The notes under the pieces are model-generated. The model was not told the DNA's origin and did no database searches. It saw only the letters and a program-made list of their open reading frames with translations. The translations under genes and the position numbers were made by a program. This document shows, in pieces, positions 48,901-57,900 of a stretch of DNA of 64,000 bases. Origin of the DNA: Octopus vulgaris (lineage: Eukaryota); NCBI GenBank assembly GCA_951406725.2, contig OX597843.1, positions 12,276,001 through 12,340,000 of the forward strand, given 5' to 3'. Every line of letters starts with the position of its first letter. Within the stretch, counting starts at the first letter, position 1.

Positions 48901-51900
48901 AGTGTCACACTTCTCAATCCATATGTTTGGGTATATGTGTGTATACATGAAAGGGTGCCGAAAGGTACCTGGGTTTGGGTAAAATAAAATACAGCAGGAT
49001 CAGTTAATTATGATTTTATTCAACACATTCCCCTCTCAGATCAACACACTTATTGCAGTGGTTCTTCAGTTTTTCTAAGCCCTGCAAAAGAATTCTGACA
49101 GTTGGGCCTATAACCCTTTCGTTACCAACCCGGCTGAAACTGGCTCTGGCTCTTTAGTACGAATGTCTGGTTTTCAAAAGTTCTGAATTAAAACCTTCCA
49201 CCAAACCTTAGTCACAATTTATGTCCCTAACTCTAGCTTAATGATAACGATGTTATTTTACTTAATTCTTTGTTATATTTAACATAATTGGAAGAAACAC
49301 TGAGCATCTCAAAATAAATTCAGTAACGAAAGGGTTAATCAGGCCTTTTGCAATACCCTTAAAGCCAGGAATTTTTCAGCACCCCCTTCACGTATATTGG
49401 GTCATCCCATAAATAATACGGTTTTTTTTCAATTGCATGAATAAAAGTTGGAGAGGGATGAAATAAACTACCTGCATCAACTTGCTATAGAAGTAGGTAA
49501 TAATTTTATCTTGTCCTTATTCTTAGTGCAAGTTTTGAAGAGTGCTGTTCGATTTTAACAGCTTGGCCGATGCCAGCACCAACTCGTGGCCGATGCCAGC
49601 ACCAACTCGTGGCCGATGCCAGCACCAACTCGTGGCCGATGCCAGCACCAACTCGTGGCCGATGCCAGCACCGCCTCGACTGGCTTCCGTGCCGGTGGCA
49701 CATAAAATACACCAATCCGACCGTGGCCGTTGCCAGCCTCGCCTGGCACCTGTGCAGGTGGCACGTAAAAAGCACCTACTACACTCACGGAGTGGTTGGC
49801 GTTAGGAAGGGCATCCAGCTGTAGAAACATTGCCAGATAAGACTGGAGCCTGGTGCAGCCTTCTGGCTTCACAGATCCCCGGTCGAACCGTCCAACCCAT
49901 GCTAGCATGGAGAACGGACGTTAAACGATGATGATGATTTTCTCAAAGCTGTAATGGAAGTGACAAAGGAGCATATTTGGCATATTTTGCTTTGTGAAAT
50001 CAATAAAAGCAACAAGGCAACGGAAACTGCAAGGAATATCAATGCAGTATACGGGGATCAGACAATAAGCATAAACCAGTGTCAATGGTGCTTCCAGAAA
50101 TTCCGAGCCAGAAATTATAGTCTAGAAGACGAACCTCATCCTGGAAGATCTGTAGAGATCGATGAGGACGTCCTGCAAACCCTTGCAGAACAAAATCCTA
50201 TCGTAGCTGTTGAGGAACTAGCGGAGAAGCTTGGATTTGGTCATTCACCCAGTCATCAACACCTGTGTACCATCGGAAAAGTAAGAAATTGGGTCAATGG
50301 GTTCCTCACAAATTTTCCAAGTCTAATCCTGTGCGGAGAGTGCATGTGTGCTCTTCTTTGCTGTCACATCTCATGGATGAACTTTCTAGGACCAAATAGT
50401 GACTGGTGACAAGAAATGGGTTCTCTATAAAAATGTCAAGTGCCGAAGGCGGTGGGTAGGAAAAGGAGAAACACTGGCACCCCAGGCTACAGAAGGTCTT
50501 CACCCATGTAACGTATTGTTATCTGTTCGGTGGGACATGAAAGGCTTAGTCCACTTTGAACTTTTAAACCTAAACCAAATGATAACAAAGGAGATCTACT
50601 GTGAGCAGCTTGAGAGGTTTAATCCAGCATGAGAAGAAAAATGCCCATCTTTGGTTTCAAAACGAAAGATATTCTTCCATCAGGATGATGCTCAACAAAA
50701 TACAGGAAGATTGAAATTTCCAAAGGCTGGAGTGGTTTGAATGGGAAACGATGCCCCACTCATCATGTTTGCTGGACATTGCCCCATCTGATTATCAATT
50801 TATTCCGTAGTCTTCAAAATCATTTGGATGAACAAAATATGAATTCTGTAGATGAGGTCAGAACTGTACTGGAAGAGTATTTTTCATCATGGACAAATAA
50901 ATTTTGAAAGAGGGCACATAAAAAACACCATCCGAGCGTGGCCGTTCGCCAGCCTCGTCTGGCACCTGTGTCGGTGGCACATAAGAAACACCATCCGAGC
51001 GTGGCCGTTTGCCAGCCTCGTCTGGCACCTGTGTCGGTGGCACATAAAAAACACCATCCGAGCGTGGCCGTCTGCCAGCCTCGTCTGGCACATGTGTCGG
51101 TGGCACATAAAAAACACCATCCGAGCGTGGCCGTTCGCCAGCCTCGTCTGGCACCTGTGTCGGTGGCACATAAAAAACACCATCCGAGCATGGCCGTTCG
51201 CCAGCCTCGTCTGGCACCTGTGTCGGTGGCACATAAAAACACCATCCGAGCGTGGCCGTTCGCCAGCCTCGTCTGGCACCTGTGTCGGTGGCACATAAAA
51301 TCACCCACAACACTCTCGGAGTGGTTGGCGTTAGGAAGGGCATCCAGCTGTAGAAACACTGCCAGATCTGACTGGCCTGGTGCAGCCTTCGGGCTCCCCA
51401 GACTCCAGTTGAACCGTCCAACCCATGCTAGCATGGAAAGCGGACGTTAAACGATGATGATGAGCCTTGCAAGTCTACCAGATAGATGGAAGAGTATTGT
51501 AGAAAATGAAAGAGAGTATATTTTAGATTAAAAAAGAACTTTGTTTATCTTAAATTTTAAAAATAAAAGAAGTATTAAAACCGCATTATTTATGGGATTA
51601 CCAACACACACACACACACACATACGATATAAGGAACATCATGGTTTACCATTTCCGTAATCTGAAGGATTATATGCAAGTTAAATATACACACACACAC
51701 ATATATACATATATAAATTTGTGTGTCTCTATGTATATGTATGTATGTATACACACACATATATATATACACACACACACATACATATATAAATTTGTGT
51801 GTCTGTATGTATATGCATGTATGTATACACACACACACATATATATACACACACACACATACATACATATATAAATTTGTGTGTCTCTATGTATATGTAT

Positions 51901-54900: not shown

Positions 54901-57900
54901 TAACCCTTTCGTTACCAACCCGGCTAAAACCGGCTCAGACTCCGAGTACAAATGTCTTGTTTTCATAAGTTCTAATTAAAATCTTCCACCAAACCTTAGT
55001 CACAATTTATGCTCCTAACACTAGCTTAATGATAACGAAGTTATTTTACTAAATTCTTTGTTATATTTAAAATTAATTGAGAGAAACACAGAGCATCTCA
55101 ACAGAAATATGGTAACAAAGGGCTTAAAGTCACCATGATATTTTTAACCCTTTCGTTACCGACTTGGCTGAAACCGCCTCTGGTTCTGTAGTACAAATAT
55201 CTTGTTTTCATAAGTTTTGAATTAAAATCTTCCACCAAACCTTAGTCACAATTTATGCTCCTAACACTAGCCGAATGATAACTAAGTTACTTTACTAAAT
55301 TCTTTGTTATATTTAAAATTAATTGAAAGAAACGCAGAGCATCTCAACAGAAATATGGTCACAAAAGGGATAAAGTCACCATGATATTTTTAACCATTTT
55401 GATACCAACCTGGCTGAAACCACCTCTGGCTCTGTAGTACAAATGTCTTGTTTTCAAATTTTCTGAATTAAGATCTTCCACCAAACCTTAGTCACAATTT
55501 ATGTTCCTAACACTAGCTTAATGATAACTAAGTTGTTTTACTAAATTATTTGTTATATTTAAAGTGATTGAAAGAAACGCAGAGCATCTCTAAATAAACA
55601 CAGTAACGAGAGGGTTAAAAAAACACAAAATACAAACCTTAATTAAGACAATAAAAGAGGATGTTTTTAATATAATTATCATGAAGTAAAAAAAATTTCT
55701 AATGAATAAAATATAAAAAATACTATAAAAGAAAAATCAGGAACGTCTTAGTTTACCATTTCCGTAATCTGAAGGATTATATGCAGGTTAAAACTAAAAA
55801 TCTGAACACCTAAATTAATTTAGTAAACGAGCATTTTAATGGGAATTCACTCAATTGAATACCCAAAACCTTCCTTTTAGCAGAATGGAATATCTTGGCA
55901 CAGTCATTTTGGTGCCAATTATTTGGCATTGCTTGGCATCAAACATTTTAATGTTTCCCTCTCTCTCTCTCTCTTTTTTCTCTTTATATATACATACATG
56001 TGTGTCTGCCGATAAAGGCATTTTTTCCAAATACGCCAGCTAAACTAAGCTGTACTGTCTATTAGTCGTAAGACACCCGCTGTTTTTGTCCTGTTATTAC
56101 TATTATTGTTTTTTGTATTTTATATTCGTGTGGCATCATCCGTTTTTCTGTCCCGATTTTGTATACATTCGCTCCTTCTTCCAAGAAATCTAATGCTCGT
56201 AGCTTAGTCCATGTTAGCTTATGTTCCGAACATCAACCTGATAAAGACAAACTTATTTCACTAAATTCTTTAATATTTTCCAAAATCCATTGAAATGGAA
56301 GCTGTGTATTTCAGCAGGAATATCCTCGTCGTATGATATAGTTCTCACATTTTTACACCATGTTTGATTGAACCCTTTTGATACCAACTCAACTGAGACA
56401 GCCCTTCCTGGTTCTCTGATACGTACAACCTGTTTAAAGGCGTCTAAGTTAAAAACCTTCTGTCGAAATCTCATGTTAATTTATGTTCCAATCACAAAAT
56501 TAATTAATAAGACAAAATTATTCAAACAAAATTCTTCATTATTTTTCAAACTCAACTGAAACAAAGCAACAAAAAGCCCAACTGGTTATTTTTACTCCAT
56601 TAGGTCCCCATCACTATTTACAGATACAAGGGTTCTCTACTTTAGGGAACATGCTCTGTGTCTGTATATAATCAAATTGTGAACATATAATTAAACATGA
56701 AAACGACTCAAAAATATATTAGCATGTAATTATCATATAATTAACATGCCAGCCTCGTCTGGCACCTGTGTCGGTGGCACATAAAAAACACCATCCGAGT
56801 GTGGCCGTTCGCCAGCCTCGTCTGGCACCTGTGTCGGTGGCACATAAAATCACCCACTACACTCTCGGAGTGGTTGGCGTTAGGAAGGGCATCCAGCTGT
56901 AGAAACACTGCCAGATCTGACTGGCCTGGTGCAGCCTTCGGGCTCCCCAGATCCCAGTTGAACCGTCTAACCCATGTTAGCATGGAAAGCGGACGTTAAA
57001 TGATGATGATGATGATGACAATTGTCACTATATCTGGCAAGACCCTTAGTGACTTCTCTCAGAACCTTTGGGTCCCAGAGGAAGCCTAATTGTGAACCAC
57101 TACTGTTCTGTTGGCCCTGCCAAATAGTTACTTTAATGTTGTCAGTGTATAGTAAGTATTGTCTTGAGCCCTTAAGACTAATAGAGCTGGTTACCTGGCT
57201 TCCAGCATAGAAATAACTGAGATCGCAATGTTCTCCCTGGATGGGACACAAGTCTCTAGCAGGGTTGCTCACCTACTGCTAAGCAAATTTGGACAATGTG
57301 AAATGAAGTGTTCTGCTCAAGAATGCAACACGTCATCTGGTCCAGAAATAGAAAGCACAATCGTAAGCTCATTAGAGGAAGGCCCTAACCAATAGGCCAG
57401 GTACCATCACAACCCAAACATCATCATCATCATCATTAATAAGTCCTTGGACAATATAATTCCTGAAGCCCTAGGATTCATCGGACCAGTTACCCTGTCC
57501 CCATGGCATATGAGAGACTGAGTTCTTCTAAATGGAAGACCAGTTTGTCGCAGGGTTGCTCATTTAAGGCTGAATAAGCTGGAGAAAAGTGAAATGAAGG
57601 GTCTTGCTCAAGACTCCAGCACACCACCAGGTCCAGGGATTGAAACCATGATCACAAGAGCATGGCTGCAGCACACGACCCTCCAGCACACCACCAGGTC
57701 CAGGGATTGAAACCATGTTCACAAGAGCATGGCTGCAGCACACGACCCTCCAGCACACCACCAGGTCCAGGGATTGAAACCATGATCACAAGAGCATGGC
57801 TGCAGCACACGACCCTCCAGCACACCACCAGGTCCAGGGATTGAAACCATGATCACAAGAGCATGGCTGCAGCACACGACCCTCCAGCACACCACCAGGT

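What the first reader, a model, noticed from the sequence alone, without database searches (positions are those of the whole stretch)
51644..55791. Duplicated 12-nt microexon cassette (ITEM) within one PBRM1 intron
Seen: a ~42-bp sequence occurs at 51644-51685 and 55751-55792 with one mismatch and unrelated flanks. On the gene strand it is a branch-like ttaac, a TGC, ccttcag, ATTACGGAAATG and gtaaac. It is frame-preserving between IVPQK and EPSPLL, just after BAH2. Known: UGC motifs close to the 3' splice site mark SRRM3/4 (eMIC)-regulated neural microexons in bilaterians. Inference: a possibly neural microexon present twice, allowing 0, 1 or 2 ITEM insertions. The duplicated span matches the splice-signal unit almost exactly.
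Basis: partly seen in the sequence, partly recalled or inferred. Interest (0 to 1): 0.7.

Follow-up and report, generated by a model that had tools for sequence, protein, structure and literature searches.

The report
Twin candidate microexon in octopus PBRM1
One intron of an octopus chromatin-remodelling gene holds two near-identical copies of a short stretch found nowhere else in the genome; it is likely a tiny optional exon (four amino acids) copied together with its splice signals, but none of the RNA contigs or protein records examined contains it.

Summary
The duplicate is real. A 42-nt core (1 mismatch) lies twice, 4,107 nt apart, in the PBRM1 intron after BAH2, and nowhere else in the 2.8-Gb genome. 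Similarity continues about 17 nt past the donor (12/17), so the unit is about 59 nt and the flanks are not wholly unrelated. The core reads branch-like TTAAC, TGC, CAG, 12 in-frame nt (ITEM), GTAAAC. Mismatches cluster after the donor (permutation p about 0.03), a hint of constraint on both copies. Use as an exon is not shown: 4 of 4 spliced contigs skip it and 0 of 17 cephalopod PBRM1 records carry it. The donor is weaker than 21 of the gene's 22 others, and the UCUC/pyrimidine part of the eMIC code is missing. Best reading (0.45): a weak alternative microexon whose copy raises inclusion rather than diversity, since both copies encode the same peptide. Close rival (0.40): a neutral 59-nt copy lodged in a microsatellite. 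Neural regulation and double inclusion are untested. Unchecked notes of this scan report other duplicated microexons elsewhere in this genome.

The parts
58495..58566 (-). Upstream PBRM1 exon (72 nt, KYSLS...IVPQK), donor GTAAGT, phase 0
   Evidence: tblastn and junction fit to P0013; spliced contigs
55734..55792 (-). Copy A of the duplicated unit (about 59 nt); core 55751-55792
   Evidence: held in 3 of 4 DNA-like runs
55783..55791 (-). Copy A branch-like TTAAC (55787-55791, branch A about 20 nt before the exon) and TGC (55783-55785)
   Evidence: read from sequence; function inferred
55757..55768 (-). Candidate 12-nt microexon A (ITEM), after CAG and before GTAAAC
   Evidence: splicing not shown
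51686..52400 (.). TG/TA/TACA microsatellite-minisatellite array (about 76-82 nt period) abutting copy B's 5' end; outer edge approximate
51627..51685 (-). Copy B of the duplicated unit; core 51644-51685
51650..51661 (-). Candidate 12-nt microexon B (ITEM), identical to A
   Evidence: splicing not shown
49400..51602 (.). Transposon remnant with 26-nt terminal inverted repeats (49400-49425, 51577-51602), starting about 25 nt behind copy B's tail; not part of the cassette
   Evidence: 'mariner-like' is recalled from the look of the open frame 49906-50406, not tested
48104..48304 (-). Downstream PBRM1 exon (EPSPLL...), with alternative donors at 48119 and 48104

Best explanation
The 42-nt core is likely a weak, normally skipped 12-nt microexon with its branch point, UGC and splice sites, present in two copies 4.1 kb apart in one PBRM1 intron. 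Shown: the two copies, their uniqueness, the frame, and that skipping is the main spliced form in four samples. Inferred: in some cell type (neurons are the usual home of such exons; untested) the spliceosome would use either copy and add Ile-Thr-Glu-Met at the last predicted strand of the BAH2 arm, about 10 residues before the disordered linker to the HMG box. Because the copies encode the same 12 nt, the second would add no new peptide; it would raise the chance of inclusion (about 1-(1-p)^2) and allow a rarer ITEM-ITEM form (about p^2), as 4 kb leaves no steric bar. Copy A, in unique flanks, is inferred to be the older; copy B was probably copied into a microsatellite.
For: Core unique to these two places. 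A random 42-nt stretch holds a TGC + YAG-3n-GTRA cassette on a given strand with probability 0.3%, and 0.005% with the branch motif added (patterns written after seeing the element). Of 45 two-copy matches of 30 nt or more in 464 kb around the gene, only this one has the TGC cassette; 5 of 45 have the bare cassette. 5 of 6 mismatches lie after position +6 of the donor (permutation allowing a free boundary, p about 0.03), as expected if both cores are constrained. The acceptor scores above 7 of 22 real acceptors of the gene and above about 90% of all AGs. The genome encodes an SRRM_C (eMIC-bearing family) match over the Pfam cut-off. Scallop and whelk PBRM1 records carry 15-33-residue inserts at this same junction (26 of 57 non-cephalopod mollusc records), so the site tolerates insertions. 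No listed difference falls in copy A's core in three DNA-like runs of three organism labels, although this is not significant (p 0.27).
Against: 4 of 4 spliced contigs from four studies join the two long exons directly (tissues unknown, contigs show only the main form). 0 of 17 junction-spanning cephalopod records, and none of the 223 proteins held, has ITEM there. The donor scores below 21 of the gene's 22 other donors, whereas mammalian SRRM3/4 targets have strong donors (bioRxiv 2024.09.17.613571, introduction passage); fly targets have weak ones (PMC8797185 section 10). No UCUC in the 100 nt upstream of either copy, no pyrimidine tract between branch and UGC, and copy B has only TG/TA repeats upstream. 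A TGC near the acceptor also occurs at 4 of 22 ordinary acceptors of this gene. The insertion would fall in a confidently modelled strand (residues 456-458, pLDDT about 93), not in the disordered linker.
Confidence: 0.45

Rival explanations
1. A neutral local duplication: about 59 nt of ordinary intron were copied (for instance by templated repair of a break in a microsatellite) and the splice-like layout is chance or a cryptic exon that is never usefully included.
For: Copy B sits between TG/TA repeats on both sides. Two-copy matches of this size are not rare here: 45 in 464 kb, 4 of them direct at 1-13 kb. Bare YAG-3n-GTRA cassettes occur 1.3 times per kb of strand. No inclusion in contigs or proteins. 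Weak donor, incomplete eMIC code.
Against: The fuller cassette is rare by chance (0.3% to 0.005%), and identity drops right after the donor's +6 position (p about 0.03).
Confidence: 0.4
2. The core is constrained but not coding: a decoy or intermediate splice site, or a protein-binding element that affects splicing of the flanking exons, present twice.
For: Core/tail contrast without inclusion. The region is alternatively spliced at several nearby sites.
Against: The 12-nt, stop-free, frame-keeping spacing needs no explanation under this reading; there is no AG|GT recursive-splice motif; no Rfam family lies on the core (all hits sub-threshold and nearly all on the microsatellite).
Confidence: 0.1
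3. Copy B is private to the sequenced animal or lineage, or an assembly error next to the microsatellite array.
For: Copy B lies in a repeat-dense stretch.
Against: A mis-assembled or very young copy should be identical to A; B differs at 6 of 59 nt.
Confidence: 0.05

Closest known systems
SRRM3/4 (eMIC)-dependent neural microexons of vertebrates and Drosophila (PMC8797185, passages and section 10 read; bioRxiv 2024.09.17.613571, passages and section 10 read)
   Same: 3-27 nt, frame-keeping, weak 3' splice site, UGC between branch point and AG; a regulator-family domain is encoded in this genome.
   Different: No UCUC motif or long pyrimidine tract, short branch-to-AG distance, long flanking introns (fly targets have short ones), no evidence of neural inclusion, and two identical copies.
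Tandem duplicated exons spliced as mutually exclusive substitutions (PMC9741552, abstract and passages read)
   Same: An exon with its splice signals copied within one intron.
   Different: Known cases give distinct but homologous peptides and one copy is always used; here both copies are identical in the exon, the main form uses neither, and nothing in the layout forces exclusion.
Neuron-specific splicing of chromatin regulators, such as the 4-residue LSD1 microexon (PMC11864812, passages and section 7 read); mouse Pbrm1 neural exon MmuEX0033841, 45 nt (PMC8797185 Table S2, one row seen)
   Same: A small insert in a broadly expressed chromatin protein; PBRM1 itself has a neural alternative exon in mouse.
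   Different: The mouse exon is 45 nt and is listed under 'Neural'; I did not map it onto the protein, so homology with this site is unknown.
Alternative inserts at the same PQK|EPS junction in scallop and whelk PBRM1 records
   Same: Same junction, in-frame optional insert.
   Different: 15-33 residues, all starting with Val, which suggests donor shifts rather than cassette exons (inferred); no likeness to ITEM.

Membership tests
eMIC/SRRM3/4-dependent neural microexon | 3-27 nt exon flanked by AG and GT, frame-keeping | tested here: met
   12 nt, CAG and GTAAAC, phase 0, no stop
eMIC/SRRM3/4-dependent neural microexon | Actually spliced into mRNA | tested here: inconclusive
   0 of 4 spliced contigs and 0 of 17 cephalopod proteins include it; contigs drop minor forms and tissues are unknown
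eMIC/SRRM3/4-dependent neural microexon | UGC between branch point and AG | tested here: met
   TGC 17 nt before the exon in both copies; also at 4 of 22 ordinary acceptors
eMIC/SRRM3/4-dependent neural microexon | Long pyrimidine tract with UCUC motifs, set back from the AG | tested here: not met
   No TCTC/CTCT in 100 nt upstream of either copy; one pyrimidine between branch motif and TGC; B has TG/TA repeats upstream
eMIC/SRRM3/4-dependent neural microexon | Long AG-exclusion zone | tested here: inconclusive
   Nearest upstream AG at -27 in A and -67 in B
eMIC/SRRM3/4-dependent neural microexon | Neural-specific inclusion that depends on the eMIC domain | not testable with these tools
   No raw reads or tissue labels were offered; only the presence of an SRRM_C match was shown
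eMIC/SRRM3/4-dependent neural microexon | Exon and near flanks better conserved than surrounding intron | tested here: inconclusive
   0 listed differences in the core against 5 in 165 nt of flank in the most distant run (p 0.27); A versus B core/tail contrast p about 0.03
Mutually exclusive tandem duplicated exons | Homologous exon copies in tandem in one gene | tested here: met
Mutually exclusive tandem duplicated exons | One and only one copy in the mature transcript, giving distinct peptides | tested here: not met
   Main form has neither copy; the two exons are identical
Dispersed repeat (SINE, MITE, transposon piece) | Many copies across the genome | tested here: not met
   2 matches in 2.8 Gb at up to 2 mismatches

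The most novel reading that the evidence does not exclude
Both copies are functional, selectively kept twins of one neural microexon, so octopus neurons tune the PBAF subunit PBRM1 by count (0, 1 or 2 ITEM units at the end of BAH2): exon duplication used as a dosage dial rather than as a source of alternative peptides.
Probability: 0.12. Interest if true: 0.6.

Novelty: new variant of a known kind. Interest (0 to 1): 0.3.

Why it matters
If inclusion is confirmed, this is an unannotated microexon in a core chromatin remodeller of an animal whose neural splicing is little described, and a case of identical twin microexons whose only effect can be on inclusion level or repeat count. I found no such case in print (five phrasings, one listing that looks unrelated by title and abstract start). 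It would also be a natural two-copy test of which bases a microexon needs. If inclusion is not found, it is an ordinary short duplication.

Tried and rejected
Longer tandem duplication behind the pair: the 228-246-nt block found downstream of both copies is a genome-wide repeat (64 matches scored) and no other unique similarity links the flanks; rejected. Non-coding RNA: no Rfam match at gathering score; 126 sub-threshold hits, nearly all on the microsatellite. Run search: no RNA holder listed, kinds are guesses, all contigs. Copy B in other animals: no record of B was laid in any of 4 DNA-like runs and copy A's contig is unbroken across the shared 35-mer; run X16 covers neither copy. This is no evidence of absence: the tool drops human-like and rare records, B lies between microsatellites, and graph cleaning removes such short paths (recalled). 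Contig of X8 ending exactly 30 nt into the upstream exon: first read as a fork towards the microexon, but its length is 30+186+132+30 = 378, which fits an arm whose alternative joins exon 58495 to exon 31609; rejected as support. VYLK insert in O. vulgaris and O. sinensis records: an alternative donor of the exon ending 62707/62719, not a microexon. A BLAST self-comparison of 464 kb timed out and was replaced by a k-mer count. One of 23 junctions was dropped from the splice-site matrix for poor fit. 137 of 148 distant proteins could not be classed by pattern; their printed junction regions show no ITEM-like insert. Not done: a search of proteins shorter than about 108 residues for the junction, and a sequence comparison with solved BAH structures, so short included-form fragments and the experimental position of the strand remain open. 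Supplements of the bioRxiv preprints were closed; the exon tables of 10.64898/2026.09.05.749416 include Octopus bimaculoides and could list this exon.
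Full report
Observation. On the minus strand the window holds a 42-nt sequence twice, at 55751-55792 (copy A) and 51644-51685 (copy B), with one C/T difference. BLASTN of the intron against itself gives 57 nt at 91% (E 6e-17). Beyond the donor 12 of 17 further letters match (shuffle p 0.0005), so the copied unit is about 59 nt with 6 differences, 5 of them in the last 17. A 35-nt and a 25-nt piece of the core match only these two places in the 2.8-Gb genome at up to two mismatches.

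Gene context. The downstream exon is 100% identical to proteins named polybromo-1 from Octopus vulgaris and O. sinensis. Mapping these and a cuttlefish protein places PBRM1 on the minus strand over about 250 kb. Both copies lie in the 10.2-kb phase-0 intron between exon 58495-58566 (ends IVPQK) and exon 48104-48304 (starts EPSPLL). The intron is mostly repeats. Copy A has about 170 nt of apparently unique sequence upstream and 110 nt downstream. Copy B is abutted upstream by a TG/TA microsatellite array and downstream by (TG)n and the inverted terminal repeat of a transposon remnant. The sharp edges of B may therefore come from repeats having replaced its flanks, or from insertion of the copy into a microsatellite; they do not by themselves show that a splice unit was picked out.

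Splice anatomy. Each core reads TTAAC, one pyrimidine, TGC, a purine-rich spacer, CCTTCAG, 12 nt encoding ITEM, GTAAAC. Against a matrix from 22 junctions of this gene (23 found, 1 dropped for poor fit), the donor scores above only 1 of 22 real donors and above 82% of all GTs in the window; the acceptors score above 7 of 22 real ones and about 90% of all AGs. Of the eMIC code described in PMC8797185 (section 10) and bioRxiv 2024.09.17.613571 (passages and section 10), the UGC between branch point and AG is present, while UCUC motifs and a pyrimidine tract ahead of the UGC are not. A TGC this near the acceptor also occurs at 4 of 22 ordinary acceptors of the gene. The genome has an SRRM_C match at 32.6 bits against a cut-off of 27, so a regulator of the right family is probably there; whether the full eMIC exon is intact was not checked.

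Is it more than chance? In 464 kb around the gene there are 45 non-simple matches of 30 nt or more that occur exactly twice; 5 hold a bare YAG-3n-GTRA cassette and only this one holds it with a TGC. A random 42-nt stretch would hold the bare cassette with probability 2.9%, the TGC form 0.3%, and the form with a branch motif 0.005%. The clustering of mismatches after the donor's +6 position has p about 0.03 when the boundary is left free (600 permutations). These patterns were written after seeing the element and the site was chosen from many windows, so I take them as moderate support.

Transcript and protein evidence. The run search offered only assembled contigs of uncertain kind and unknown tissue. 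Four of them, from four studies, were laid on the downstream exon. All four are spliced and join it directly to the upstream exon. This shows skipping is the main form in those samples; it cannot exclude a minor or tissue-restricted form. Of 18 cephalopod PBRM1 records, 17 span the junction and none has an insert. Of 57 other mollusc records, 25 are direct, 26 carry inserts of 15-33 residues starting with Val, and 6 could not be classed. Of 148 further distant proteins none shows an ITEM-like insert (137 not classed by pattern). The intron position looks old: many short records among them read on into unrelated sequence right after the residue matching PQK. Gene-model pipelines often miss 12-nt exons (my knowledge), so the protein blank is weak.

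Other genomes. Four DNA-like runs were laid on copy A with its flanks. X15 and X17 hold it whole with 3 differences, none in the core; X18 holds 55734-55957 with 6 differences, the 5 listed all in the upstream flank. The spared core is not significant at this distance (p 0.27). Copy A is therefore shared by three organism labels. The call says nothing reliable about copy B.

Effect on the protein. An AlphaFold2 model of P0007 with a 47-row alignment puts the junction after residue 456, in a short strand (456-458) of the arm that follows BAH2, with pLDDT about 93; confidence falls below 50 from residue 466 to 530, before the HMG box (531-589). The insert would shift this strand by four residues. 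The matching strand after BAH1 reads VRV (256-258), and the longer mollusc inserts begin with Val, so K-I-T could stand in for K-E-P (inferred). Any effect on nucleosome binding is speculation.

Mechanism. Best reading (0.45): a weak alternative microexon, skipped by default, possibly switched on in neurons, and copied once with its signals. The two exons are identical, so mRNAs using A or B cannot be told apart; the copy can only raise inclusion or give an ITEM-ITEM form. Rival (0.40): a neutral 59-nt copy with a chance or cryptic cassette. Lesser rivals: a non-coding splicing element (0.10), a private or artefactual copy B (0.05).

Comparison and novelty. It resembles eMIC-type microexons but fails one of their sequence features and lacks proof of inclusion, so I do not file it as one. 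It is not a mutually exclusive tandem exon pair in the sense of PMC9741552 (abstract and passages). PBRM1 has a 45-nt neural exon in mouse (one table row of PMC8797185) and appears among the primer sets of PMC11864812 (passages and section 7; its supplements gave no hit); I did not map that exon. Searches for microexon with cephalopod, PBRM1 or octopus, for duplicated or identical microexons, and for polybromo splicing in molluscs returned nothing on this element by title and abstract start. The 2026 preprint that includes O. bimaculoides does not name PBRM1 in its main text (passages); its supplements were closed. Unchecked notes of this scan describe several other duplicated microexon arrays in this genome; if right, copying of small exons is common here, which makes this case more plausible and less special. 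I did not test them. Verdict: real duplicate, unproven exon, interest 0.3.

Noticed in passing
window 31609-58495: The contig of run X8 is exactly 30+186+132+30 nt, the shape of one arm of a bubble whose other arm would join exon 58495 straight to exon 31609. That would skip two exons in frame and remove the linker and the first half of the HMG box. Inferred from lengths only.
   Followed up: partly
window 62707-62719: Alternative donors 12 nt apart add VYLK inside the BAH2 arm; both forms are in O. vulgaris and O. sinensis records.
   Followed up: yes
window 48104-48119: Alternative donors 15 nt apart add VNGSP; 2 of 4 contigs use each.
   Followed up: yes
window 48305-48330: The acceptor of the downstream exon is odd: TTGAC, then TCTGC, then a run of eight A before CCAG. 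It echoes the branch-TGC-purine-CAG layout of the candidate, and may make this exon skippable.
   Followed up: no
window 26295-26335 and 11783-12199: A 39-nt exon ([13 protein letters not shown] region) behind a long A run, and a large Gln/His-rich exon with a GC donor, are optional among the records.
   Followed up: no
window 29744-29782, minus strand: A third match to the strict cassette pattern (12 nt, AFEP) in another PBRM1 intron; single copy, phase not checked.
   Followed up: no
window 49400-51602: Transposon remnant with 26-nt inverted ends, a broken transposase-like frame (49906-50406) and nested SINE-like repeats with 63-nt and 23-nt internal tandem arrays.
   Followed up: partly
window 57480-58449: A 67-nt tandem array with near 100% identical units starts about 100 nt behind the upstream exon's donor.
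   Followed up: no
L008 1192-1650: Exon of a likely Srrm234 gene with the start of the SRRM_C domain; the exon that would complete the eMIC domain was not looked for.
   Followed up: partly
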